64,000 nucleotides of DNA from an uncultured Candidatus Saccharibacteria bacterium (GTDB lineage Bacteria > Patescibacteriota > Minisyncoccia > Phycocordibacterales > Zambryskibacteraceae): positions 11,452 through 75,451 of the forward strand of contig CAYHDI010000002.1 of the NCBI GenBank assembly GCA_964355645.1, given 5' to 3'. A model generated the notes under the pieces. The model worked only from the letters and a program-made list of their open reading frames with translations. It was not told the DNA's origin and did not search any database. Shown in pieces: positions 11,223 through 52,043 of this stretch. The position numbers were made by a program, and so were the translations under genes. Numbering within the stretch: the stretch's first letter is position 1; each line of letters starts with the position of its first letter.

Positions 11223-11801
11223 ATGCGCTCCTTTACCCTCGTTGTACTCCTGGCTATCCTGCTGGCCCCGTTGGGCCTGATTCAGGCCCAGAACACGTGC
11301 GGTATCTGTCCGCCCAAGGACACCACTGCCCTAGCCCTCAACGCCTTCAAGGCGAAGATGGACAAGACGGACAGGAGTCAGAATGCTCGCATCGCGAGCC
11401 TCCAGGTCTCCCGTGTCCAGATGCAGAAGAGCATCGAAGTCCTGTCCGGCAAGGTCCTCGACCTCAACGCGAGGCCTACGACCGATACGTCGGTCATGAA
11501 CCAGCTTACTTGGAATTCGGCCGAACTCGCTCGGCAGAAGGTCGAACTCTCCAAGGTCGAGAACGAGATCTCTGGGCTCGGGCGTCAGCTAGCCGAAGCA
11601 AGGGCAAAGGCTCTTGAACAGGCGAACAAGGATACCAAGAAGAAGACAAGCGGTCTGTCGACGGGCGACAAGTGGCTAATCGGCGGCTCAGCCGTCGTCG
11701 TGACTGGAGGACTGGTGTATCTCGCTGTCCAGAAATTGGGCAGGTCGGAGACTCACACCAGCTCCTCCAGCTCCTCCTGCTCCGGCAGCAATTGCCGATA
11801 G
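11223..11801 (+). CDS. secreted coiled-coil protein with C-terminal TM and Ser-rich tail, encoded in a roughly 60% GC block (likely foreign)
   Basis: It has a signal peptide (MRSFTLVVLLAILLAPLGLIQAQ). GC content jumps sharply relative to both flanks. A GC-rich terminator hairpin follows directly. Confidence 0.35.
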   Translation: MRSFTLVVLLAILLAPLGLIQAQNTCGICPPKDTTALALNAFKAKMDKTDRSQNARIASLQVSRVQMQKSIEVLSGKVLDLNARPTTDTSVMNQLTWNSAELARQKVELSKVENEISGLGRQLAEARAKALEQANKDTKKKTSGLSTGDKWLIGGSAVVVTGGLVYLAVQKLGRSETHTSSSSSSCSGSNCR

Positions 11802-14792: not shown

Positions 14793-15182
14793 TCAAGCAA
14801 TCAAAAGCTTGATCTTTTGTTTTATCTCCACATAATCTTTTATGTCTAAAACCCCGATTTTATATTGTAAGCGTTTGGAATCTATCATTCTCAGTTGTGA
14901 AAGTATCACTGTATTAGAACCTCTATTCTCTAGACTAAAAGTAAAGTAGTATTCACCTTTTTTAGTTTTCTTTGTAAGTGGAATGGCCCAAAAACTTTCA
15001 TTATTAAATTTTCTTAACACAAGTACCGGACGACGGAACTCCTTACCCCTACCGTCTTCTTCAAATCCGATGTTGGCTCCGAGCGAGGCAAACCAAATTT
15101 CTCGTTCATGGAAGAAAGGCCTTTGTCTATCCTCGTGAATATCGCTTTTTTCTTTGTGCCATTCAGAAAAATCTTTTTTCAT
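14793..15182 (-). CDS. MazF/PemK-family mRNA interferase toxin-like protein
   Basis: ...EREIWFASLG...RRPVLVL...WAIPLT...TVILSQLRMIDSKRL..KIGVLD parallels MazF/NdoA in Bacillus (...RPVLVIQ...VILLEQIRTIDKQRLTDKI). It lies 16 bp downstream of ftsA. No upstream antitoxin gene is present. Confidence 0.6.
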   Translation of the reverse strand: MKKDFSEWHKEKSDIHEDRQRPFFHEREIWFASLGANIGFEEDGRGKEFRRPVLVLRKFNNESFWAIPLTKKTKKGEYYFTFSLENRGSNTVILSQLRMIDSKRLQYKIGVLDIKDYVEIKQKIKLLIA

Positions 15183-27063: not shown

Positions 27064-28359
27064 ATGTCAAAGTTTCAGCTCATTCTTCTCGTTTCATTCG
27101 GAGCCTTCATTATCATTGCTGTTCTCTTGTTCTCTTTCTATAGAAGCTCCGGAGGAACTCAAACAGCGAATATTGTGATTTGGGGAGATATTTCTGCCGA
27201 AGATTTCAATACACTTTCAAACAATGTCGGATTCGCGAATGACCGTACTCTCGTTCTTCAGTATTCCTTTAAAGATCCATCCACTTTCGACACTACTTTC
27301 ACCGAAGCTCTCGCTCTCGGCAGTGGACCGGACCTCGTGTTCCTTTCTCAAGACAAAATTTATAGAGAAAGAAACAAAATTCTCGTCATTCCTTCGTCTT
27401 CAGTTAGTCAGAAAGACTTCTCAAATACATTCATAGATGAAAGTGATTTGTTTCTAACTTCAAACGGAGTCTATGCCCTGCCTCTTTCTGTTGACCCACT
27501 TGTCCTCTACTACAACCGTGATTTACTTTCGAAAGCTTCCCTTGCTTTCCCGCCTGCGTTTTGGGATCAAATGTATAGCTACGCGAACAAGCTAACAACG
27601 AAGGACGGAGCAGGGAACATCACGAAGTCCGTCTTGGCTCTCGGCGAGGCGAAGAATATTCCAAATTCGAAAAACATCCTTTCTCTCCTGATGCTTCAAG
27701 CGGGCACACCTATCACCGATATCCCAAGCGATACTCAGACACCAAAACTACAAGCCGAGTTGACTAACAATTTCAATCTACCGCTTAATCCAGCGAATTC
27801 AGCTTTGGATTTTTATACTCAGTTCGCGAATCCAGCGAAGCCGTTTTATTCGTGGAATAGATCTCTCCGCAATGCGAATGTGAATTTTGTTTCTGGCGAC
27901 AGCGCGCTCTATATTGGATTTGCCAGTGAATTGCGCGAACTGCGAGCCAAGTCCCCAACTCTAAATATCGGAATCGCTCTCGTTCCTCAATCAAGGGTTT
28001 CAGGCAAATCGATGACGTACGGAACTCTACGAGGAGTGGCCATTTCGAAGGGCTCGAAGAATCCGAGCGCGGCTCTTCGAGCCGCGCTCCTCCTGTCCTC
28101 CGCGAACACGAGCCTCGCGTTGTCCAAAATCCTCCAACTTCCTCCTCCTCGTCGAGATTTGCTTTCGAACAAACCGACGGATACGGCCAGCGGTGTTTTC
28201 TATGACTCAGCCATTCAATCTCGCGGTTGGCTTGATCCAGATGATGCGGAGACGGCTTCGATTTTCACCAACATGATTGAATCAGTCACTTCCGGCCGAG
28301 CACGAGTGGATGAAGCTATAAGTACTGCGCAGGATCAAATTAATACTTTAATCAAATAA
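27064..28359 (+). CDS. membrane-anchored extracellular solute-binding-protein-like (SBP family 1-like)
   Basis: It has an N-terminal TM anchor and resembles periplasmic-binding proteins in its middle region (...YALPLSVDPLVLYYNRDLL...). Confidence 0.4.
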   Translation: MSKFQLILLVSFGAFIIIAVLLFSFYRSSGGTQTANIVIWGDISAEDFNTLSNNVGFANDRTLVLQYSFKDPSTFDTTFTEALALGSGPDLVFLSQDKIYRERNKILVIPSSSVSQKDFSNTFIDESDLFLTSNGVYALPLSVDPLVLYYNRDLLSKASLAFPPAFWDQMYSYANKLTTKDGAGNITKSVLALGEAKNIPNSKNILSLLMLQAGTPITDIPSDTQTPKLQAELTNNFNLPLNPANSALDFYTQFANPAKPFYSWNRSLRNANVNFVSGDSALYIGFASELRELRAKSPTLNIGIALVPQSRVSGKSMTYGTLRGVAISKGSKNPSAALRAALLLSSANTSLALSKILQLPPPRRDLLSNKPTDTASGVFYDSAIQSRGWLDPDDAETASIFTNMIESVTSGRARVDEAISTAQDQINTLIK

Positions 28360-28363
28360 ATTT

Positions 28364-28696
28364 ATGCCTGGATGGGAACCACTTATTGTTTGTAGCAATC
28401 CACCAGATTTTCCTAAAGCTTGTGATTTTAATGCCTTGATTCTGCTCGTGAATCACCTCATTACTGATTTGATTCTTCTTTCGACTCTATTTGCTACAGC
28501 GGGGTTTGTTTATGTCGGTATCAAGCTCCTCACAGCCGGAGGGGATGAAGGGGCGATGAAGTCGGCCAAGAGTTCTGCGTGGGCAATTCTCAAAGGATTC
28601 TTGTGGATACTTGTAGCTTGGGTTTTGGTTTATACTATTACCAATGTCTTATTAAGTTCATCAGGTTATTCACTTCTAGGCGCCCCAACAAAATAA
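28364..28696 (+). CDS. TrbC/VirB2-like small two-TM protein, paralog 1 of 6
   Basis: Its architecture is TM helix, then AGGDEGAMKSAK loop, then TM helix. Confidence 0.35.
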   Translation: MPGWEPLIVCSNPPDFPKACDFNALILLVNHLITDLILLSTLFATAGFVYVGIKLLTAGGDEGAMKSAKSSAWAILKGFLWILVAWVLVYTITNVLLSSSGYSLLGAPTK

Positions 28697-29104
28697 ATGA
28701 AAAAACATCTTCCATTTCTGCTTGTCCTCGTTCTTCTCTTGAGTTTTTCAACGATGATTGTTCACGCACAACAAGCCGCAGGTCAACCAGGAGGGTCTCA
28801 AGCAACAGGTAATACCCAAAAAATAAACACGGGCATAGAAAATCCATTTGGTCCAAATGGGCCCACGAATCTCAAAGACCTTTTCACCCTTTTGATTAAC
28901 AATTTGCTCATCCCAATCGGCGGAGTGGCCGCGGTGCTCGCGTTTATTTATTCGGGCTTTCTATATGTGATGGCTCAAGGTGATGAGACGAAGATTAAAA
29001 CTGCTCATCGGGCGCTTCTCTATACTTCTATAGGCACAGCCGTGCTCCTCGGCGCGTGGGTTATCTCAAATGTGATTAGTGCTACTATCAATCAACTCAA
29101 ATGA
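28697..29104 (+). CDS. TrbC/VirB2-like small two-TM protein, paralog 2 (with signal peptide)
   Basis: It has a signal peptide, then a TM helix, then the loop AQGDETKIKTAHR, then a second TM helix. Confidence 0.4.
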   Translation: MKKHLPFLLVLVLLLSFSTMIVHAQQAAGQPGGSQATGNTQKINTGIENPFGPNGPTNLKDLFTLLINNLLIPIGGVAAVLAFIYSGFLYVMAQGDETKIKTAHRALLYTSIGTAVLLGAWVISNVISATINQLK

Positions 29105-29502
29105 GCGCTCCAACAGATTTCAAAAGTTTAGTAGGAATATTCATTGATCTCATCAACACAGCTCTTCCTGTCCTCGCCGGAGTCGGTTTGCTTGTTTTCT
29201 TTTGGGGTCTAGCGAAATTTATTCGAAATGCGGGCGATGCGAAGAATCATCAGGAGGGGAAAGATTTAATGATATGGGGAATAGTGGGTTTGTTTGTGTT
29301 GTTTTCAGTTTGGGGAATTGTGGGGTTTGTTCAATCGAGTTTTGGTATCAGAAGTATGCCTTTCGGAATTCCTTATCTTCCATCAAGCAATAATTCACAA
29401 ACGGGATTTTGTACCTATCCTAACGGCACCGTTGTCTCGGGCTATAGCCCGGCACAGTGTTTATCGGCCAAGGGTGGATGGAGCCCTGCCAGCAATATTT
29501 AG
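29101..29502 (+). CDS. TrbC/VirB2-like small two-TM protein, paralog 3
   Basis: It has the FFWGLAKFIRNAGDAKNHQEGKDLMIWGIVGLFVLFSVWGIVGF core. Confidence 0.4.
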   Translation: MSAPTDFKSLVGIFIDLINTALPVLAGVGLLVFFWGLAKFIRNAGDAKNHQEGKDLMIWGIVGLFVLFSVWGIVGFVQSSFGIRSMPFGIPYLPSSNNSQTGFCTYPNGTVVSGYSPAQCLSAKGGWSPASNI

Positions 29503-29519
29503 GACAAAATTAAATAATT

Positions 29520-29765
29520 ATGAAAGCTTTGATTCAAGCCACTGGAGGTATCATAAATCAGCTGATTATTATTGTGGCTGGATTGGCCTTAATCTATTTC
29601 TTTTGGGGGTTAGCGAAATTTATTTTTCACGCTGGTGATGTTGAGAAGCACGAAGAAGGCAGAAACATCATGATTTGGGGCGTCGTCGCTCTATTCGTGA
29701 TGGTGTCTGTCTGGGGGTTATTGAATTTTATTAGCTCTGCTCTCAATATCTGGAGCACTGTTTGA
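29520..29765 (+). CDS. TrbC/VirB2-like small two-TM protein, paralog 4
   Basis: It has the FFWGLAKFIFHAGDVEKHEEGRNIMIWGVVALFVMVSVWGL core. Confidence 0.4.
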   Translation: MKALIQATGGIINQLIIIVAGLALIYFFWGLAKFIFHAGDVEKHEEGRNIMIWGVVALFVMVSVWGLLNFISSALNIWSTV

Positions 29766-29876
29766 TCTTTCGGTGCTTGTTTATAAGTGAATAACGGGGC
29801 TAGTATTCTGTCCATCCTCGGCGTATGATTAAAGCATACCGCATTCGGGTATATTAAAAGATAAATATATTTGTAA

Positions 29877-30224
29877 ATGAAAAGAATTATTCCGTTTCTT
29901 GTTCTGACGCCATTCCTTGCTTCGGCTCAGACGCTTGGTACTATTCCAACTTTGCTCAAGTCTGTAGGAAGCCTTATCAACACAGCCCTACCTATCGTGG
30001 TTGGACTGGCTCTTCTTGGGTTCTTCTGGGGATTGGCCATGTTCATTTTTGGCGCAAATGATGAAGAAAAACGCAAAGAGGGTCGTTCAATTATGATTTG
30101 GGGCGTCGTCGCTCTATTCGTGATGGTGGCTGTCTGGGGATTGGTAAACTTCATTGGAAGTGCTGTGGGTGTTGTTCCAGGAGCTGCTGGTATTCCGACA
30201 ATTCCGACCGTTCCAGCTAGATAA
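29877..30224 (+). CDS. TrbC/VirB2-like small two-TM protein, paralog 5 (with signal peptide)
   Basis: It has the FFWGLAMFIFGANDEEKRKEGRSIMIWGVVALFVMVAVWGL core. It shares a 48-bp DNA segment with paralog 4 with one mismatch. Confidence 0.4.
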   Translation: MKRIIPFLVLTPFLASAQTLGTIPTLLKSVGSLINTALPIVVGLALLGFFWGLAMFIFGANDEEKRKEGRSIMIWGVVALFVMVAVWGLVNFIGSAVGVVPGAAGIPTIPTVPAR

Positions 30225-30233
30225 TATTTCTGC

Positions 30234-30509
30234 TTGATGTCGATTGCCACGTTTCTAAACAAGATTAATGCAGCGATTCTTAATCCGCTCATAGGTTTGG
30301 TTTTCGCTGTGGCCACTATTGTGTTCATCTACGGTCTTGTTGAGTTCATTCGTTCAGAAACAGCGGACAAGGCCCGCGAAGCGGGCAAGAAGAAAATTCT
30401 CTATGGTCTCCTCGGAATGTTCATCATGTTCAGCGCTTACGGATTGATTCATCTGATTCTCGGAACATTCGGCATCCCGAATCCTCCGGGTGCTTACATT
30501 AGTTTCTAA
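30234..30509 (+). CDS. TrbC/VirB2-like small two-TM protein, paralog 6
   Basis: It has the same architecture with a diverged loop, ETADKAREAGKKKILYG. Confidence 0.35.
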   Translation: MMSIATFLNKINAAILNPLIGLVFAVATIVFIYGLVEFIRSETADKAREAGKKKILYGLLGMFIMFSAYGLIHLILGTFGIPNPPGAYISF

Positions 30510-30526
30510 GAAAATACAGAAATGAA

Positions 30527-30570
30527 TAAGCCCCGTCCCGCAAAGTCGCATGTGCGACCGCGGGGCGGGG
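30527..30570. terminator. GC-rich bidirectional terminator at the boundary of a GC-rich island
   Basis: The stems are agccccgtcccgc...gcggggcggggct. Confidence 0.5.
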
Positions 30571-30582
30571 CTTTGTGTTCCC

Positions 30583-31230
30583 CTACTTGTAGAATCGTAC
30601 GCCGATTCGGAGACTCGAATCACCGAGCGATTTGAACGCGATGGTTCTCACCATTCCGAATTGCACAGTTTCCATCTCCGGACGAATGGTGAATTTTCCA
30701 GCTTGAGTTGCCACGACGTACGGGACGTCGAGCTCCTCGGCATTCACTTCCATCGTGTAGCCTTTCCGCACTTCTCGGGGAAGCGTCCATGACTTGCCGA
30801 ATGTATTCGGCTGAGCTGTGAACCAAAATGTGGTATCGCTTGGGAACTGTGGATGCGTCTTCAAGTATTCGGCCTGAGCCTGAGCTTTGGCCATTTCCGC
30901 CTTCTGGTACTTCCCGTTGACCCACGGCCACACGATGAAGATGACGACGAGAGCGAAAATGGTCCAGCCCGCGAACTTCTGGAACCACTTGTGCGTGATA
31001 ACCGTGCCAGCTTTTGTTCGGCGATTCTCGTCCCAGGCAATCCAGGAGATGAGAGCGAGTAAAGCAAGCACTACCGCGGTGATCCACGTCCAGTGCCAGA
31101 CTCTTGACCAATCCACCGAACCGATGAAAAGGCTAAGAATCATAACCGCAACGATGAGCCCGATGACTGCACCGCCGGCTTGGAGCCTCTGTTTTCTGTT
31201 CATATCCCCTCCACGGGGAAATAGGTTCAA
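30583..31230 (-). CDS. membrane protein with C-terminal soluble domain (possible NfeD-like partner of the SPFH protein); GC-rich
   Basis: It has four predicted TM helices and a C-terminal domain of roughly 90 aa. It shares an operon and GC content with the SPFH gene. Confidence 0.35.
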   Translation of the reverse strand: MNLFPRGGDMNRKQRLQAGGAVIGLIVAVMILSLFIGSVDWSRVWHWTWITAVVLALLALISWIAWDENRRTKAGTVITHKWFQKFAGWTIFALVVIFIVWPWVNGKYQKAEMAKAQAQAEYLKTHPQFPSDTTFWFTAQPNTFGKSWTLPREVRKGYTMEVNAEELDVPYVVATQAGKFTIRPEMETVQFGMVRTIAFKSLGDSSLRIGVRFYK

Positions 31231-31314
31231 CTTCGTCTTTGCCCATTATACGCCCAAATTATATTTTGTCAAGTATGAAAAAGACTGGGAGATTTTTTGC
31301 CCAGTCTATGCACA

Positions 31315-32445
31315 TTACTTCGACCCAACGAGTTGGGCTGTCTTGCCTCCAACCACGAGAGTAGTAAGAGTTTTGTTCTCTCCGATTGCCTCGGCGAAAC
31401 GAATCCCCGCAGCGTTCGGAATTGCTCCGAGCGGAATGAGTACTCGAGTGACGCGATCAGCATCAGCGGTGTTCACAACCTTCTGTGCCTCGGCTTTTCC
31501 CTCACCGGCGAGGATGACAAGTTTCTTATCCTTCTCGGCTCGAGCGATGGCTGCCTTGTTCTCGCGCTCCGTGGTTTCTTGGAGTTCGAGAAGCGTACGT
31601 GTCTTCTCGTCCACATCGATGCCAAGAAGATTCGTAGTTCTGACCGTGATTCCAATCTTTTCTTCTATTTCTCCCTGCTTATCCATCACAGCCTTGACGA
31701 GGTCGTGTTTGTTGGAGACATCACCTTGGATGAAGTACTCAGGTTCTTGATTTCCCGTCGTGTTGTTTACGGCTTCCATCACCATCGCTGTGAGCACGGC
31801 GTTGGGGTCGGCCATTCCCAAAACGGCATGAACCGGATATTTCATCGCGTACAACAAGTTGAATTGCAAATCGAGCTCGTATGAGCCCATGGTTTCCGCA
31901 CCACGCACATCCACAGCTTGCTCGCGCGAGTAGTAGATGAACTTGGTGGAGAAATCCTTGCCTACGATTGAGTACACGTCGCGGTCTCCATCCTTGCCCT
32001 TCTTGAATCTGATTTCATGAACCTGATTTAGACGGAGAGAACGACCCCAGCCAATCCAGTGGATGCCGAAGAGGTAGTGAAGGAGTCCATATTCCTTTTC
32101 ACCATCCTCGAAGCACCACTTGAATGGATCTGGGTCATCGTCATTCAAGCGTTGGCCTGGAACGCCGTGGATAACTTTGTCGAGCTCACCATCAATGAGA
32201 TTGGATGCATCGGTTGAATCACTTGACGACCCCCAAGTGACAAGTGCGAAAGTATTCGCCGGAATGAAGCACCACCAGATCTCGTTGTAAGCGAGAATCC
32301 AGATGGTTCCAAGCACTAGTGTTACTAGTGCAAGGACGATGAGAAGGGAAATGAAAAGCGCTATCATTCTGTGCTCCCTGTGGCCATAGCCACGGAGTAA
32401 TGTGAAATGTGCATGAATCTTGCCTGTCGCGATTTTATCATACAA
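31315..32445 (-). CDS. SPFH/Band-7 (stomatin/prohibitin/flotillin) domain protein; GC-rich
   Basis: It has an N-terminal TM helix, a band-7 core and a C-terminal ...ILAGEGKAEAQK... Ala/Glu-rich coiled coil, typical of flotillin-like proteins. Confidence 0.65.
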   Translation of the reverse strand: MYDKIATGKIHAHFTLLRGYGHREHRMIALFISLLIVLALVTLVLGTIWILAYNEIWWCFIPANTFALVTWGSSSDSTDASNLIDGELDKVIHGVPGQRLNDDDPDPFKWCFEDGEKEYGLLHYLFGIHWIGWGRSLRLNQVHEIRFKKGKDGDRDVYSIVGKDFSTKFIYYSREQAVDVRGAETMGSYELDLQFNLLYAMKYPVHAVLGMADPNAVLTAMVMEAVNNTTGNQEPEYFIQGDVSNKHDLVKAVMDKQGEIEEKIGITVRTTNLLGIDVDEKTRTLLELQETTERENKAAIARAEKDKKLVILAGEGKAEAQKVVNTADADRVTRVLIPLGAIPNAAGIRFAEAIGENKTLTTLVVGGKTAQLVGSK

Positions 32446-32501
32446 AATCTACGAAGTCAAATAAAAAATACCAAACAAAAGTCTGGAATTTTTTGCATTG
32501 T

Positions 32502-32581
32502 GCCGAGGAGAGGACTTGAACCCCCACCCCTTGCGGGACCAGTTCCTAAAACTGGCGTGTCTACCATTTCACCACCTCGGC
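32502..32581 (-). tRNA. tRNA-Leu (anticodon TAG)
   Basis: The reverse complement is gccgaggtggtgaaatggtagacacgccagtttTAGgaactgg... with a long variable arm; the T-arm is ggttcaagtcc. Confidence 0.75.
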
Positions 32582-32585
32582 AGGG

Positions 32586-32658
32586 TGCGCCCAGTAGGAG
32601 TCGAACCTACGACCATCTCCTTAAGAGGGAGCTGCTCTACCAACTGAGCTATGGGCGC
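32586..32658 (-). tRNA. tRNA-Lys (anticodon CTT)
   Basis: The reverse complement is gcgcccatagctcagttggtagagcagctccctCTTaaggag...ggttcgactcc. Confidence 0.7.
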
Positions 32659-32729
32659 AAAACTTTTGTAACTTACAAACAATACCTAAAAAACAATTCT
32701 TTTTCAATTATGATAATGTATTAAAGAGT

Positions 32730-32801
32730 GGCCTAGTCGCCAAGTGGTAAGGCAAAGCTCTGCAAAAGCTTTATACGGCGGTTCGATTCCGCCCTAGGCC
32801 T
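32730..32801 (+). tRNA. tRNA-Cys (anticodon GCA)
   Basis: ggcctagtcgccaagtggtaaggcaaagctctGCAaaagcttt...ggttcgattccgccctaggcct. Confidence 0.75.
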
Positions 32802-32837
32802 CCTGTTCAAGAAAGTTTTGTTGTGTAGAATTAGATA

Positions 32838-33551
32838 ATGATTGATCGTGAAAAAATTAAACCTCAACATCTCTGGTATTTTATAGGATTGATTGTAACC
32901 GATGGAAATCTAAGTAAAAGTGGACGACATATTATTCTGACTTCTAAAGATAGAGAGCATCTATATTTAATTAAGAAGATTCTAGGGCTTACAAATGTTA
33001 TTGGCAGAAAGACTAGGGCTAGTTCAGAAGATAGATTATATTCTACCCTTCAGTTTGGAGATATTCGTTTTTATAAATACTTACAGAGCATAGGCATAAC
33101 CCAGAAAAAATCTCTTACTCTTGGAAAGATTGCAATAGACAAAAAATATTTCTGCGATTTTTTGAGAGGGGTAATTGATGGTGATGGCTATATTACTAGA
33201 TGGAAACATAAAAATAATGGGTTAAATCAGTGGGCTTTGGGCATTGTCTCTGCGGCTCCCGTATTTATTTGTTGGTTAAAAAATGAAATAGAGATACAGT
33301 TTAAAGTAAGGGGAAGGTTACACATTTATCTACCAAAAGGAAAGAAAAACCCTATAAACACATTAAAATTTGGGAAACTTGCTGGTAAGGTGATTATAAA
33401 AAATGTTTATTATAAGAATTCTTTTTGTCTGGAAAGAAAAAGACTCAAATGTGAAGAGTGTTTACTAGATAGGAATCGAATGGTAAATTATGGGGGTGTC
33501 ATTCGCCCGGGTGCTGAAATCGGTAGACAGCCTCGACTTAAAATCGAGTGA
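32838..33551 (+). CDS. LAGLIDADG homing endonuclease (double-motif)
   Basis: Two LAGLIDADG motifs are present: YFIGLIVTDGNL and DFLRGVIDGDGYI. The gene is AT-rich. Its last roughly 45 nt read into the 5' half of tRNA-Leu(TAA). Confidence 0.75.
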   Translation: MIDREKIKPQHLWYFIGLIVTDGNLSKSGRHIILTSKDREHLYLIKKILGLTNVIGRKTRASSEDRLYSTLQFGDIRFYKYLQSIGITQKKSLTLGKIAIDKKYFCDFLRGVIDGDGYITRWKHKNNGLNQWALGIVSAAPVFICWLKNEIEIQFKVRGRLHIYLPKGKKNPINTLKFGKLAGKVIIKNVYYKNSFCLERKRLKCEECLLDRNRMVNYGGVIRPGAEIGRQPRLKIE

Positions 33552-33588
33552 GGGAAACCTTGTGTGGGTTCGAGTCCCACCCCGGGCA
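33505..33588 (+). tRNA. tRNA-Leu (anticodon TAA)
   Basis: gcccgggtgctgaaatcggtagacagcctcgactTAAaatcgag... has a long variable arm; the T-arm is gggttcgagtccc. Confidence 0.75.
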
Positions 33589-33592
33589 CATT

Positions 33593-33663
33593 GCGGGTAT
33601 GGTTTAGTGGTAGAATGCGACCTTCCCAAGGTTGAGACCCGAGTTCGATTCTCGGTACCCGCA
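33593..33663 (+). tRNA. tRNA-Gly (anticodon CCC)
   Basis: gcgggtatggtttagtggtagaatgcgaccttCCCaaggttg...gagttcgattctcggtacccgca. Confidence 0.7.
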
Positions 33664-33717
33664 CACTTCTGCAAGCTCAGTGTAAACTATTATTTTATTT
33701 CATTCGTAATCTCGTCC

Positions 33718-33801: not shown

Positions 33802-34716
33802 TTATTCAGTTTTTAGATTTTCTGTAAGACCAGAATTTGCAATAATTATTTGAATAATCTTAAGTAAATTCTCAAGTATAGGTACAATTCTTCTGTTTTC
33901 TTCCGCGATATCTTCCTCAGAAGGCAGTTTTCTAGTTCTCAAATATTTGTCACGGTTAGTGGAAAGATACTCAAAACAATAATTAGCTTCGTCAATTATT
34001 TTATTAAATTCCTTTTGTTGTTGTGGGGTTAAAGATGACTCATCTCGTATGTCGAACGAAGGGTCACGCACCATTCGTTCCAAAAGATTTAGGCTAAGAC
34101 TTTTGATATATTGAGCATATTCGATTGCTTTTGTGAGAGTTTGTTGAGAGACAGCAATTCTTTTTGCAAGGATTGTTATCCTATCTTCCTCACTTGCTTT
34201 AGGAAGTTCACTTCCAAGAAATTGTCCGGTGTAGCACCCGTATGAGAGCTTGTTTGTTATATCTCCCCCTATCTCGATTATTTGCTCCAAGAACGTCATA
34301 GGGTTTTGCTCTTTTGTGGTTTCATCTTTGATACGACTCATCTGATACGAACGGAGAATTTTAATATCTGTTCCCACTATCATCTTAAGTGTTACGTCTA
34401 CGTTAGCTCCATGCCCAAGGCGATCTGTAATAGTTCGGACCAAACCTTCAGTATCTATAGGATTGGTTACGACAGGATGTTTATCAGCGCCCTTTATCTG
34501 ATCTAATAATCTATCAACATACCCCTCTTGGATGGCCTTAAGCAACATTGGATTAATTGTTGCCTGTTCCATCTGTTCATGACGATGAGCAGCAGTTTCC
34601 AGAGTAAATTTGGGATCACGAAAATCTTCTTCTCTTAATGCCAGATACCGTGCTAATATCCTTGGCTCAATTTCAGGTACGGGTTCTTCAAGTTTTTCTT
34701 CATTCATATAACGCAT
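33802..34716 (-). CDS. hypothetical protein (304 aa), cargo of the direct-repeat-flanked insertion; no recognisable domain
   Basis: The complete ORF is AT-rich and co-oriented with infB-rbfA. Confidence 0.4.
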   Translation of the reverse strand: MRYMNEEKLEEPVPEIEPRILARYLALREEDFRDPKFTLETAAHRHEQMEQATINPMLLKAIQEGYVDRLLDQIKGADKHPVVTNPIDTEGLVRTITDRLGHGANVDVTLKMIVGTDIKILRSYQMSRIKDETTKEQNPMTFLEQIIEIGGDITNKLSYGCYTGQFLGSELPKASEEDRITILAKRIAVSQQTLTKAIEYAQYIKSLSLNLLERMVRDPSFDIRDESSLTPQQQKEFNKIIDEANYCFEYLSTNRDKYLRTRKLPSEEDIAEENRRIVPILENLLKIIQIIIANSGLTENLKTE

Positions 34717-51182: not shown

Positions 51183-52043
51183 ATGCGTTTGAACAAGTTG
51201 TTCCTCGTGTTGTCCGTTTTGACTGCATCAGCCTGTGGCGACAAGATTTATGTCACCGCTACCGCCACTGCCGTGGCGGGCGTGGATACCACGCATCACG
51301 CACCACCGATTGACACGACGAAGAAGGACACGACCACGTCCCCGTCTACCACAACCGTTGCGGTGACTCCGAAGACGCTCGATTTGTTCATCGGGCAGTT
51401 TGGACAACTCACGGCGACTGTCACGGTCTCAAGTGGGACGGCCCCGACGCCGACATGGTCAAAGACAAATTCCTGCATCAGCCTGTCTACGGCCATTGGC
51501 ACCATTACTTCGGTGTCAGCAAATGCTGTGTGCAACACATACGTTGTCGCTTCGGCGAACGGCATTCGTGACTCAGCTCTCGTCAACGTGACGAGCGGAG
51601 CATCGAGTTGCACATGGGCGAACATAGGCGGTTCAGCCGTATACAACGCCTACATTGTGGGTGTGCCCTTCAATGCCTTTGGTGGTTGCGTCTTCCATGG
51701 CGTGGCCCAGCAACCGTATTGGTATTCGAAGGATCCTTCACGGTTCACGGTGTTGGGTGCTCCGTTCGTCTGCATGATTTCGGGCGTCGGATACCCCTGT
51801 GGAACATCGGCGACAATCAAGCCGATTTTCGTGGGGACGGCTGATGTCTGTGTACAGGCAGCTGTCCAAGATCCGAACATGATCTTCTGTCGGACTCTGA
51901 CCTCTGTCGCAGGACTTTCTGCAAGTATGGTCCAAGGCGACATTGCTGAAGGTTACAGTATGGTTTTGCCGACCGCACCTCCGAAGGGAGCCAAGGTCGA
52001 CCGAATCATCCCCTGGGCAGAATGGGTGGCTACACATCGTTAG
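51183..52043 (+). CDS. secreted/lipoprotein-like protein with bacterial Ig-like (Big_2-like) domain; encoded in a roughly 58% GC block
   Basis: The signal peptide MRLNKLFLVLSVLTASAC is lipobox-like and followed by a Thr-rich linker. The strong GC deviation suggests foreign origin. Confidence 0.4.
   Translation: MRLNKLFLVLSVLTASACGDKIYVTATATAVAGVDTTHHAPPIDTTKKDTTTSPSTTTVAVTPKTLDLFIGQFGQLTATVTVSSGTAPTPTWSKTNSCISLSTAIGTITSVSANAVCNTYVVASANGIRDSALVNVTSGASSCTWANIGGSAVYNAYIVGVPFNAFGGCVFHGVAQQPYWYSKDPSRFTVLGAPFVCMISGVGYPCGTSATIKPIFVGTADVCVQAAVQDPNMIFCRTLTSVAGLSASMVQGDIAEGYSMVLPTAPPKGAKVDRIIPWAEWVATHR

What the first reader, a model, noticed from the sequence alone, without database searches (positions are those of the whole stretch)
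30527..32500. GC-rich (about 52-55%) two-gene island (SPFH/Band-7 plus membrane partner) inserted directly 3' of tRNA-Leu(TAG)
Composition changes abruptly from the roughly 38% GC genome to above 50% across exactly two co-oriented genes. It ends at a GC-rich hairpin (30527-30570) on one side and at the 3' end of tRNA-Leu(TAG) on the other, a classic island insertion site. The SPFH protein plus a multi-TM partner resembles stomatin/NfeD-type operons. Codon usage is GC3-rich, unlike neighbouring genes.
Basis: seen in the sequence. Interest (0 to 1): 0.55.

Follow-up and report, generated by a model that had tools for sequence, protein, structure and literature searches.

The report
Conserved GC-rich SPFH membrane-scaffold gene pair
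The GC-rich two-gene patch is real, but it is not an inserted island: it is an old, vertically inherited membrane-scaffold (SPFH) gene and its membrane partner, found at the same chromosomal spot in related groundwater Patescibacteria, and it is GC-rich mainly because of its codon choice.

Summary
Window 30527-32500 is 50.7% GC against a 42.3% window (not 38%). It covers two co-oriented minus-strand genes between a strong bidirectional terminator hairpin and tRNA-Leu(TAG).

The island interpretation fails. There is no integrase and no att repeat. The same layout (gyrA, methyltransferase, solute-binding protein, VirB2-like pilin array, partner, SPFH gene, usually the tRNA cluster) recurs in 10 related loci whose SPFH proteins are 91% to about 31% identical. 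Independent assemblies reproduce both boundaries.

In every locus the pair is GC-richer than its flanks, although synonymous sites are near saturation. The spacers are mostly not GC-rich. About three quarters of gene A's excess comes from codon choice (TTC, TAC, ATC, CTC and AAG up; CTG absent; GAT unchanged). This points to maintained codon bias, probably from high expression. Each gene has its own conserved strong promoter-like site.

Gene A is a genuine but divergent SPFH protein (model pLDDT 92; top fold matches are HflK, stomatin, prohibitin and QmcA). Gene B (three predicted TM segments plus a C-terminal domain) showed no sequence or profile match to NfeD. In more distant relatives its place is taken by a larger membrane protein with a lysozyme-like domain.

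Verdict: an ordinary conserved gene pair, a new member of a known kind, of low to moderate interest.

The parts
32500..32581 (-). tRNA-Leu(tag), the first gene of a five-tRNA cluster. It is the conserved upstream neighbour of gene A, not an integration scar.
   Evidence: ARAGORN and Rfam. The same tRNA lies upstream of the SPFH gene in L001, L020 and L021, and in L011 with an inserted island between them. Its 3' end is not repeated elsewhere in the window.
32432..32460 (-). Promoter-like site for gene A: TTGACT, 17 nt, TG-TAAAAT (extended -10).
   Evidence: Consensus scan. The TTGACTT box is shared by W, L001, L005 and L006. The TGATAnAA -10 block is invariant in all six aligned loci.
32374..32397 (-). 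5'-UTR stem-loop of gene A: a GC clamp plus a pyrimidine stretch (CUCC) paired with the Shine-Dalgarno GGAG.
   Evidence: RNAfold gives -12.5 kcal/mol, z=-2.4. About 7-8 of the 11 loci examined carry an analogous GC hairpin with different stem sequences just 5' of the SD; in most of these the MFE fold also pairs upstream pyrimidines with SD bases. RNAalifold found no consensus because the alignment is out of register.
31315..32367 (-). Gene A: a 350-aa SPFH-family membrane scaffold protein. Layout: N-terminal TM 2-27, beta-rich SPFH domains about 30-252, a long helix 254-314, a helix 319-330 and a C-terminal tail.
   Evidence: Pfam Band_7 on the protein alone is E=0.0016, below the cut-off. 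The family profile matches PH stomatin at 8.7e-11, and also stomatin, QmcA, HflK/C and prohibitin. 56 of 78 family members hit Band_7. AF2 pLDDT is 92.1. Foldseek top hits are all SPFH cage proteins. hhalign against E. coli QmcA gives 92% probability. dN/dS is 0.058 against L001.
31277..31307 (-). Intrinsic-terminator-like hairpin plus T-run directly after the gene A stop codon.
   Evidence: Fold of -15.1 kcal/mol, z=-2.95. A hairpin plus T-run is present at the same place in L001, L005, L008 and L011, with compensatory stem changes.
31245..31272 (-). Promoter-like site for gene B: TTGACA, 16 nt, TATAAT. It is the only 12/12 sigma-70 consensus match in the 64-kb window.
   Evidence: TTGACA and a TATAAT-like box are conserved in L001, L005 and L011.
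30583..31203 (-). Gene B: a 206-aa polytopic membrane partner. It has three hydrophobic segments (about 10-28, 36-56, 76-95), a short helix-like linker and a C-terminal soluble domain of about 90 aa, predicted extracytoplasmic by the positive-inside rule.
   Evidence: ORF and hydropathy. Homologues are found only in close relatives: P0009 at 90%, P0010 at 67%, and L005, L006 and L008 at 24-37% in the TM region only. dN/dS of 0.215 is the highest in the neighbourhood. No Pfam, PDB or PADLOC family matched.
30527..30573 (.). GC-rich bidirectional terminator hairpin between convergent gene B and the last pilin gene.
   Evidence: -38.6 kcal/mol, z=-5.7; no shuffle of 200 folds as well. It lies between the stop codons at 30509 (+) and 30583 (-).
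27064..30509 (+). Context: a solute-binding protein gene and six VirB2-like T4SS_pilin genes, convergent on the pair. They are part of the conserved block.
   Evidence: Pfam SBP_bac_8 and SBP_bac_1, and PF18895 in six genes (five above the cut-off, 28364-28696 below it). The same arrangement occurs in all loci whose downstream sequence is held: L001, L005, L006, L009, L011, L019, L020 and L021.

Best explanation
The two genes are resident chromosomal genes of a groundwater Patescibacteria (Paceibacteria-type) lineage. They are not an insertion.

Gene A encodes a divergent SPFH protein with the complete family architecture: membrane anchor, SPFH domains, a long coiled-coil helix and a C-terminal tail. 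By analogy with HflK/C, QmcA, stomatin and prohibitin, it most likely assembles into a ring or cage on the cytoplasmic face of the membrane and fences off a membrane patch. That step is inferred.

Gene B encodes a three-TM protein whose C-terminal domain is predicted to face outwards. It is the likeliest client or partner held in that patch, also by inference. In more distant relatives the same position holds a larger polytopic protein with an extracytoplasmic lysozyme-like domain.

Each gene has its own strong promoter-like site and its own terminator. Gene A also carries a conserved 5'-UTR hairpin that pairs with its ribosome-binding site.

The high GC is mainly a codon-usage signature. C-ending codons that match G34 tRNAs (TTC, TAC, ATC, CTC, AAC) and AAG are strongly preferred. 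The same bias is kept in orthologues from genomes of different base composition even though synonymous sites have turned over. This indicates selection on codon usage, most simply because the genes are highly expressed. The link to expression is inferred, not measured.
For: Synteny and vertical descent:
- The order gyrA, methyltransferase (absent in L019), SBP, pilin array, partner, SPFH gene is found in L001/L002 (91% aa identity), L005 (63%), L006 (51%), L009 (31%), L011 (39%), L019, L020 and L021.
- L008 (54%) keeps the SPFH gene, partner and tRNA-side flank, but its contig ends before the pilins.
- Flank proteins diverge in step: GyrA 94/88/88% and SBP 84/73/76%.
- L018 is 100% identical to window 30099-32617, and that contig was assembled in 6 samples.

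GC excess is conserved:
- The pair is richer than its flanks by about +4 to +11 points in all 10 related loci.
- dS between the window and L001 is 0.78 for A and 1.2 for B, against 0.9-3.4 for flanks.

Nature of the excess:
- For A, 6.0 of 7.8 points come from codon choice (z=3.6). For B, 7.1 of 10.6 points (z=4.2).
- In A plus B combined, TTC is 96%, TAC 87%, ATC 62%, CTC 50% and AAG 67%, while GAT stays at 66% and CTG is 0. Four-fold-site GC of A is 0.52, near background.
- TTC and TAC are raised in gene A in all 7 genomes analysed.
- Spacers are 38-41% GC in the window and 27-48% in relatives, apart from the 57% L006 spacer that holds an extra gene.

Expression signals:
- Gene B has the only 12/12 consensus promoter match in the window. 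Gene A has an extended -10. Both are conserved.

SPFH identity.

Cytoplasmic orientation: K+R averages 2.26 after the TM against 0.26 before it, and is higher after the TM in 63 of 78 family members.
Against: - No expression data exist for this organism. No ribosomal-protein or EF-Tu genes were within reach to calibrate 'highly expressed' codon usage.
- Phosphoketolase and acetate kinase, plausibly abundant enzymes, show no such bias.
- G-ending AAG, GAG and CAG are also enriched, and B has raised GC at four-fold sites (0.62). A general GC component is therefore not excluded.
- A diverges faster than the flanks at longer range (51-63% while GyrA stays at 88%). Allelic replacement within the clade is possible.
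- An SD-sequestering hairpin suggests regulated rather than constitutively maximal translation.
- Physical interaction of A with B is untested. B's C-terminal domain is predicted to lie on the opposite side of the membrane from the SPFH domain.
Confidence: 0.62

Rival explanations
1. One reading: a recently acquired two-gene genomic island from a GC-richer donor, integrated at the 3' end of tRNA-Leu(TAG).
For: The region has atypical GC and GC3. It abuts a tRNA 3' end. In relative L011 a real island lies between tRNA-Leu(tag) and the SPFH gene: a large serine recombinase, DUF2268 and a YcaO/nitroreductase gene. The site is therefore usable for integration.
Against: The pair is present at the same place in all 10 related loci. 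It has no integrase, and no repeat of the tRNA end at the far boundary. The spacers are not GC-rich. dS to the 91% relative matches the flanks for B (1.2) and is the lowest of the set for A (0.78). No donor lineage was found: all named relatives are Patescibacteria, and there was no phage hit.
Confidence: 0.03
2. Ancient transfer into the common ancestor of this clade, or repeated allelic replacement within it, with the foreign composition still visible.
For: The GC excess is shared by all descendants. A and B diverge disproportionately at longer range: A is 51-63% and B 24-37% identical where GyrA is 88%. Partner genes are duplicated or swapped (L005 has two paralogues; L006 has a duplicated, identical C-terminal domain; large and small partner types exist). 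Hinderhofer et al. 2009 (PMC2636767) argue that SPFH genes are often laterally transferred.
Against: Synonymous sites are near saturation, so an unselected foreign composition should have decayed. The excess tracks each host's own background rather than a fixed donor value. The bias is codon-specific, with CTG avoided and GAT unchanged. Spacers are host-like.
Confidence: 0.15
3. Local GC enrichment without selection on translation, for example GC-biased gene conversion at a recombination hot spot beside a rearranging tRNA cluster, or transcription-associated mutation.
For: The tRNA cluster beside the pair is rearranged or inverted between relatives. Contig L017 joins a 99.8% identical A-B segment to a different upstream flank. 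G-ending as well as C-ending codons are enriched.
Against: Spacers inside and upstream of the pair are AT-rich or host-like. Four-fold-site GC of A is near background, while two-fold C-ending codons are at 60-100%. L017 has 2x coverage and breaks inside a tRNA that is 98.75% conserved between genomes, so an assembly chimera is likely.
Confidence: 0.08
4. Functional rival: B is a cryptic NfeD homologue and the pair is a classical stomatin/NfeD operon like qmcA-ybbJ.
For: The gene order is the same as E. coli qmcA-ybbJ, with the SPFH gene first. B has three N-terminal hydrophobic stretches, a short hydrophilic linker and a C-terminal soluble domain, which is the architecture Hinderhofer et al. 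describe for NfeD (PMC2636767). Known NfeD pairs can be only 21% identical (same paper).
Against: No NfeD signal appeared in Pfam at E<=10, in PDB profile search, or in hhalign against YbbJ (P=0.07, TM region only). B is transcribed from its own promoter after a terminator, unlike the 4-bp overlap in qmcA-ybbJ. The positive-inside rule places B's C-terminal domain outside and the SPFH domain inside. The position is occupied by a lysozyme-like protein in distant relatives.
Confidence: 0.15
5. Assembly chimera joining a foreign GC-rich fragment into the contig.
For: None beyond the composition itself.
Against: L018 (Logan assembly, seen in 6 samples) is 100% identical over 30099-32617. L017 is 99.8% identical over 30090-32576. 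The same junctions exist in relatives from JGI, ENA, NCBI and Logan assemblies.
Confidence: 0.01

Closest known systems
Bacterial and archaeal stomatin-type SPFH proteins (E. coli QmcA/YbbK, P. horikoshii PH1511; PDB 8z5g, 3bk6)
   Same: Both have an N-terminal membrane anchor, an SPFH alpha/beta domain, a long coiled-coil helix and a C-terminal tail. The SPFH domain is probably cytoplasm-facing. A small polytopic membrane protein gene follows immediately downstream.
   Different: Sequence identity is only about 13-20%, and the window protein alone falls below Pfam's Band_7 cut-off. The region before the core SPFH2 domain (residues about 30-145) is longer and beta-rich. The partner has no detectable NfeD domain, and the two genes are separate transcription units.
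HflK/HflC-FtsH and prohibitin cages (PDB 7vhq, 9cz2, 8rrh)
   Same: These are the best Foldseek matches over nearly the full length (E about 1e-9, 340-360 aligned columns). The same cage-forming architecture is expected.
   Different: There is one gene rather than a K/C pair, and no ftsH next to it. Orientation is predicted cytoplasmic rather than periplasmic.
NfeD/STOPP partners (YbbJ, YuaF, PH0471)
   Same: Three hydrophobic stretches followed by a soluble C-terminal domain, and adjacency to an SPFH gene.
   Different: No sequence or profile similarity. B is longer (206 against about 150 aa). Its C-terminal domain is predicted to be outside the cell. That domain differs between the W/L001 type and the L005/L006/L008 type, and the position is taken by a lysozyme-like protein in more distant relatives.
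VirB2-like pilin arrays of Patescibacteria (Microb Genom 2025, PMC12102498)
   Same: The pair lies directly beside a six-gene PF18895 array of the kind described there.
   Different: A term search of that paper found no mention of an SPFH gene, and it states that most VirB2-bearing genomes lack VirB1. Here, distant relatives carry a lysozyme-like (SLT_3) membrane protein next to the array. Functional coupling is unproven, because the whole 20-kb region is syntenic.
tRNA-linked genomic islands
   Same: Position next to a tRNA 3' end, and atypical GC.
   Different: No recombinase and no att repeat. The pair is present in all relatives, and the bias is at codon level only. L011 shows what a real island at this tRNA looks like.

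Membership tests
SPFH / Band-7 superfamily (gene A) | Profile-detectable SPFH (PF01145) domain | tested here: met
   The window protein alone scores E=0.0016, 18.9 bits, below the 23.6-bit cut-off. However, 56 of 78 family members hit Band_7, best 3.4e-10. The family profile hits PH stomatin at 8.7e-11, human stomatin at 6e-8 and QmcA at 5e-7. hhalign against QmcA gives 92% probability.
SPFH / Band-7 superfamily (gene A) | SPFH alpha/beta fold followed by a long coiled-coil helix | tested here: met
   AF2 model pLDDT 92.1, with helix 254-314. All of the top 13 Foldseek PDB hits are SPFH cage proteins at probability 1.00.
SPFH / Band-7 superfamily (gene A) | Membrane anchoring at the N-terminus | tested here: met
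   Hydrophobic helix at residues 2-27. Conserved across the family.
SPFH / Band-7 superfamily (gene A) | Assembly into a multimeric ring or cage | not testable with these tools
   Multimer prediction and experiment were not available. Inferred from architecture only.
NfeD / STOPP partner family (gene B) | C-terminal NfeD OB-fold domain (PF01957) | tested here: not met
   No NfeD hit at E<=10 in any of 7 members. No NfeD chain appeared in PDB profile search. hhalign against YbbJ gave P=0.07, TM region only. The fold itself was not tested because structure jobs were exhausted.
NfeD / STOPP partner family (gene B) | Three N-terminal hydrophobic segments, a soluble C-terminal domain, and adjacency to an SPFH gene | tested here: met
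   Hydropathy and gene order. Compared with the description in PMC2636767.
NfeD / STOPP partner family (gene B) | Co-transcription with the SPFH gene | tested here: inconclusive
   A conserved terminator hairpin and a consensus promoter lie between A and B. Read-through cannot be excluded.
tRNA-integrated genomic island | Integrase or recombinase gene | tested here: not met
   Only A and B lie between the tRNA and the terminator, and neither is a recombinase.
tRNA-integrated genomic island | Direct repeat of the tRNA 3' end at the distal boundary | tested here: not met
   Only chance-level 12-20 nt repeats were found. The tRNA 3' 23-mer occurs once in the window at up to 3 mismatches.
tRNA-integrated genomic island | Absence from related genomes at the same site | tested here: not met
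   Present in all 10 related loci.
tRNA-integrated genomic island | Atypical composition across the whole segment, including non-coding DNA | tested here: not met
   Coding GC is 51-54%, but the spacers are 41% and 38%. Most of the excess is codon choice.
Known anti-phage defence systems or phage genes | Match to PADLOC or PHROGs models, or to phage genomes | tested here: not met
   No PADLOC hit at E<=0.1 and no PHROGs hit at E<=0.01 for A or B. tblastn of A against 50,697 phage records found nothing.

The most novel reading that the evidence does not exclude
The SPFH protein and the polytopic protein downstream of it may form a dedicated envelope module serving the adjacent VirB2-like pilin array and solute-binding protein in Paceibacteria-type Patescibacteria. 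That downstream protein carries a lysozyme-like domain in most relatives and is reduced to a small ectodomain protein in this clade.

In this reading, an SPFH cage corrals a wall-remodelling or pilus-assembly factor at the site where the pilins are assembled. Translation would be gated by a conserved Shine-Dalgarno-sequestering hairpin. This would be a new client class for SPFH scaffolds, and a missing VirB1-like component for the orphan pilin arrays of these bacteria.
Probability: 0.15. Interest if true: 0.55.

Novelty: new member of a known kind. Interest (0 to 1): 0.27.

Why it matters
- It removes a false positive. GC-rich genes next to a tRNA are usually read as islands, and here synteny and codon-level analysis show the opposite.
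- It offers a reusable test. If the GC excess persists across orthologues with near-saturated synonymous sites and is absent from the spacers, it is maintained bias rather than a relic of transfer.
- It defines a divergent SPFH subfamily of at least 77 clusters at 50% identity. The named members come from Patescibacteria, and the family keeps a conserved position beside VirB2-like pilin arrays.
- If the genes are indeed highly expressed, the family is a candidate major membrane-organising protein of these reduced bacteria and a handle for proteomic or imaging work.

Tried and rejected
- PHROGs and PADLOC scans of A and B found nothing. tblastn of A against phage genomes found nothing.
- Rfam across the whole window found only tRNAs, so the GC-rich patches are not known structured RNAs.
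- The first AF2 run, with 9 sequences, gave pLDDT 53 and was discarded. The 78-sequence alignment gave pLDDT 92.
- The afdb50 fold library was unavailable.
With A3, the genome and metagenome scans added only 3 new loci.
- Homology between the small and large partner C-terminal domains is inconclusive (hhalign P=0.014).
- An HMM of the small partners does not detect the large partners.
- B against YbbJ showed no similarity.
- RNAalifold on the gene A leader gave no consensus because the hairpins are out of register. They were examined singly instead.
- I tried to reach ribosomal-protein genes of the same genome by extending both window ends. Only PrsW, HSP20, RRF and an M50 peptidase were found.
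- Literature searches found no paper linking SPFH proteins with Patescibacteria pilin arrays.
- I considered that ORF 11223-11801 might show the same conserved behaviour. It was found only in the same Hainich population and in one 78% variant, so this stays undecided.
Full report

Window 30527-32500 is 50.7% GC. That is z=2.8 among all 1974-bp windows and in the top 0.8%; the only other windows at or above 49% lie near 50.8 kb.

The patch holds two co-oriented minus-strand genes:
- Gene A, 31315-32367, 350 aa, with the ATG at 32367.
- Gene B, 30583-31203, 206 aa.

Their GC3 values are 0.575 and 0.662, against 0.419 +/- 0.042 for 44 background genes (z=3.8 and 5.8).

tRNA-Leu(tag) lies at 32500-32581 on the minus strand, with its 3' end facing gene A. 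It is followed by tRNA-Lys, tRNA-Cys, a LAGLIDADG ORF, tRNA-Leu(taa) and tRNA-Gly.

The hairpin at about 30528-30573 is a strong stem-loop (-38.6 kcal/mol, z=-5.7). It sits between the convergent stop codons of the last pilin gene and gene B, so it is a bidirectional terminator.

Two qualifications apply. First, the left edge is gradual, because the pilin genes are 42-46% GC. Second, the patch is not unique: ORF 11223-11801 is 59% GC and ORF 51183-52043 is 56% GC.

**2. What are the genes?**

*Gene A.* On its own it only grazes Pfam Band_7 (E=0.0016, below the cut-off). It had just 8 relatives in the word-indexed search of 5.8 billion proteins. A profile search of 1.84 billion cluster representatives found 77 full-length clusters at E<=1e-30.

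Several lines confirm that the family is SPFH:
- 56 of 78 members match Band_7.
- The family profile matches PH stomatin (8.7e-11), human stomatin, QmcA, HflK/C and prohibitin.
- It aligns to E. coli QmcA at 92% probability.
- With the 78-sequence alignment, AlphaFold2 gives pLDDT 92.1: a TM helix at 2-27, beta-rich SPFH domains, a 60-residue helix at 254-314 and a further helix.
- Every top Foldseek hit is an SPFH cage protein: HflK/C, stomatin, prohibitin, QmcA, erlin, flotillin or the vault shoulder.
- One member is already named 'SPFH domain-containing protein [Patescibacteria group bacterium]' by NCBI.

Across the family, K+R residues cluster after the TM rather than before it (2.26 against 0.26; 63 of 78 members). 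This predicts a cytoplasm-facing SPFH domain.

*Gene B.* It has three hydrophobic segments and a C-terminal domain of about 90 aa. Charge distribution places that domain outside the cell. B matched no Pfam, PDB, PADLOC or PHROGs family and showed no similarity to E. coli YbbJ. Its architecture does fit the published description of NfeD proteins (PMC2636767), but membership is not shown.

**3. Is it an island?**

No. Contexts of the homologues show one conserved block: gyrA, a methyltransferase (absent in L019), a solute-binding protein, five to seven VirB2-like pilin genes (convergent), the partner, the SPFH gene, and then usually the same tRNA cluster followed by rbfA, infB and clpB.

| Locus | Source | SPFH identity to gene A |
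|---|---|---|
| L001/L002 | metagenome contigs | 91% |
| L005 | metagenome contig | 63% |
| L006 | GCA_039740635.1 | 51% |
| L008 | nzgw498 MAG (contig ends before the pilins) | 54% |
| L009 | Ca. Paceibacterota MAG | 31% |
| L011 | metagenome contig | 39% |
| L019, L020, L021 | more distant family members | about 31-37% |

Other evidence points the same way:
- Flanking proteins diverge in parallel: GyrA 94/88/88% and SBP 84/73/76%.
- There is no recombinase between the tRNA and the terminator.
- There is no repeat of the tRNA 3' end.
- L011 provides the contrast. There, a large serine recombinase, a DUF2268 protease and a YcaO/nitroreductase gene sit between tRNA-Leu(tag) and the SPFH gene. 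That is a genuine island inserted next to the resident pair.
- Misassembly is excluded. A Logan contig seen in six samples is 100% identical to window 30099-32617, and a Hainich contig is 99.8% identical over 30090-32576.

**4. Why is the pair GC-rich?**

The excess recurs in every locus. In the three most distant loci the values are:

| Locus | Gene A GC | Gene B GC | Flanking genes, mean (max) |
|---|---|---|---|
| L019 | 0.512 | 0.512 | 0.429 (0.482) |
| L020 | 0.470 | 0.463 | 0.419 (0.469) |
| L021 | 0.483 | 0.478 | 0.398 (0.424) |

The remaining loci are listed. The excess rides on each genome's own background rather than sitting at one fixed donor value.

Between the window and its 91% relative, synonymous divergence is already 0.78 for A and 1.2 for B, against 0.9-3.4 for the flanks. 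More distant pairs are presumably saturated; this was not computed. An unselected foreign composition would therefore not survive.

Partitioning the excess shows that most of it is codon choice:
- For A, 6.0 of 7.8 points are codon choice and 1.7 are amino-acid composition.
- For B, 7.1 of 10.6 points are codon choice.

The bias is codon-specific. In A and B combined, TTC is 96%, TAC 87%, ATC 62%, CTC 50% and AAG 67%. CTG is absent and GAT stays at 66%. Four-fold-site GC of A is 0.52, close to background. TTC and TAC are raised in gene A in all seven genomes analysed.

The spacers are not enriched: 41% and 38% in the window and 27-48% in relatives. The one exception is L006, whose spacer holds an extra gene.

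Both genes carry top-tier promoter-like sites. Gene B has the only 12/12 TTGACA-N16-TATAAT match in the 64 kb. Gene A has TTGACT-N17 with an extended -10. Both are conserved in relatives. A conserved terminator hairpin with compensatory changes separates A from B.

The simplest reading is selection for C-ending codons that match G34 tRNAs in strongly expressed genes. High expression itself is inferred. No expression data or ribosomal-protein genes were within reach.

**5. How does it most likely work?**

Shown:
- Gene A has the full SPFH architecture.
- It is under strong purifying selection (dN/dS 0.058).
- The partner evolves fast (dN/dS 0.215). Its C-terminal domain differs between sub-clades, and it is duplicated in L005 and L006.

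Also shown: in the more distant loci the downstream gene encodes a 413-536 aa polytopic protein with a lysozyme-like domain. Pfam SLT_3 matches at E=2.2e-6, above its cut-off. The PDB profile search matches insect lysozyme at 1.4e-4 and the T3SS lytic transglycosylase EtgA at 0.02.

Inferred: A forms a cytoplasmic-face ring or cage, as in HflK/C, QmcA and stomatin, that confines the transmembrane part of the partner. The partner's ectodomain would then act at the wall or surface next to where the pilins emerge. Whether the small partner descends from the large one is unresolved (hhalign P=0.014).

The adjacency to the pilin array is weak evidence of coupling, because the whole region of about 20 kb is syntenic and the genes are convergent.

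The gene A leader carries a GC-clamp hairpin just 5' of the Shine-Dalgarno sequence in about 7-8 of the 11 loci examined, with different stem sequences. In most of these the predicted fold also pairs upstream pyrimidines with the Shine-Dalgarno bases. This hints at translational control.

**6. Comparison with what is known, and verdict**

The closest known systems are the stomatin-type SPFH proteins with a downstream small membrane partner, such as qmcA-ybbJ. Gene A meets the SPFH membership tests. Gene B fails the NfeD sequence test. The island tests fail on four of five criteria.

The literature searched describes the VirB2-like arrays of Patescibacteria (PMC12102498). It does not describe an associated SPFH gene.

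The finding is therefore an ordinary, conserved gene pair and a new member of a known kind. Two modest curiosities remain: the conserved codon-level GC excess, and the position beside the pilin array.

Noticed in passing
window 25230-25997 (+): A very AT-rich ORF (29.6% GC, 255 aa) matches the PADLOC candidate defence protein PDC-M04A (E=9e-21). It is wedged between gyrA and the methyltransferase gene. In L001 those two genes are only 18 bp apart, so this looks like a real single-gene insertion.
   Followed up: partly
window 32838-33551 (+): A free-standing LAGLIDADG endonuclease ORF (33.8% GC) lies between tRNA-Cys and tRNA-Leu(taa). It is absent in L001, where the gap is 30 bp, and present at the equivalent spot in L011 (565-1251). 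It appears to be a mobile homing-endonuclease gene inside the tRNA cluster.
   Followed up: partly
window 33802-34716 (-): A 304-aa ORF (37.5% GC) with no Pfam or PADLOC match lies between tRNA-Gly and rbfA. It is absent in L001, where rbfA abuts tRNA-Lys.
   Followed up: no
window 11223-11801 (+) and 51183-52043 (+): Two other GC-rich single ORFs (59% and 56% GC; GC3 0.77 and about 0.62) have no Pfam family. They encode a signal-peptide, coiled-coil, C-terminally anchored protein and a lipoprotein-like Thr-rich protein. Unlike gene A, their GC shift is across all codon classes. The first was found only in the same Hainich population and in one 78% variant, with no hit from the L001 genome.
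   Followed up: partly
window 20956-21616: An AT-rich DUF559 (Vsr-like endonuclease) ORF and a short GC-rich stretch lie between the S1 gene and the Lactamase_B gene. In L001 those two genes are about 200 bp apart.
   Followed up: no
L011 1907-7307: This is a genuine island between tRNA-Leu(tag) and the SPFH gene. It holds a large serine recombinase overlapping the tRNA end, a DUF2268 Zn-protease-like ORF (31% GC) and a YcaO/nitroreductase fusion, which may be RiPP maturation genes.
   Followed up: partly
window 32374-32397 (-) and equivalent leaders in L001, L005, L006, L007, L011, L019, L021: A conserved 5'-UTR hairpin lies upstream of the SPFH start. A 4-6 bp GC clamp with varying sequence sits just 5' of the Shine-Dalgarno sequence, and in most loci the predicted fold also pairs upstream pyrimidines with it. 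It may be a translational switch or thermometer.
   Followed up: partly
window 32500-33664; L001 8579-9135; L006 4082-4617; L008 7316-7863: The same five tRNA genes (Leu-tag, Lys-ctt, Cys-gca, Leu-taa, Gly-ccc) occur in different orders and orientations in related genomes. The cluster is a local rearrangement hot spot.
   Followed up: partly
L006 5906-6526 and 6601-7284; L005 68-679 and 1994-2713; L008 7947-8980 and 9792-10820: The partner genes are in flux. L006 has a second partner-like ORF whose last ~90 residues are identical to its neighbour's but which has a different, Pro-rich N-terminus. L005 has paralogues on both sides of the SPFH gene. In L008 the SPFH gene is split by a frameshift, and a second, distant SPFH paralogue follows.
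   Followed up: partly
L017 1-820 versus window 32576 onward: A low-coverage Hainich contig carries the A-B segment at 99.8% identity but has a different tRNA-Lys allele and unrelated GC-rich sequence upstream. The break lies inside tRNA-Leu. It is either a strain-level mosaic or an assembly chimera through the conserved tRNA.
   Followed up: partly
window 14793-15182 (-): A PemK-type toxin gene (Pfam family as precomputed for the identical contig L012) sits between the ftsZ and ftsA genes.
   Followed up: no
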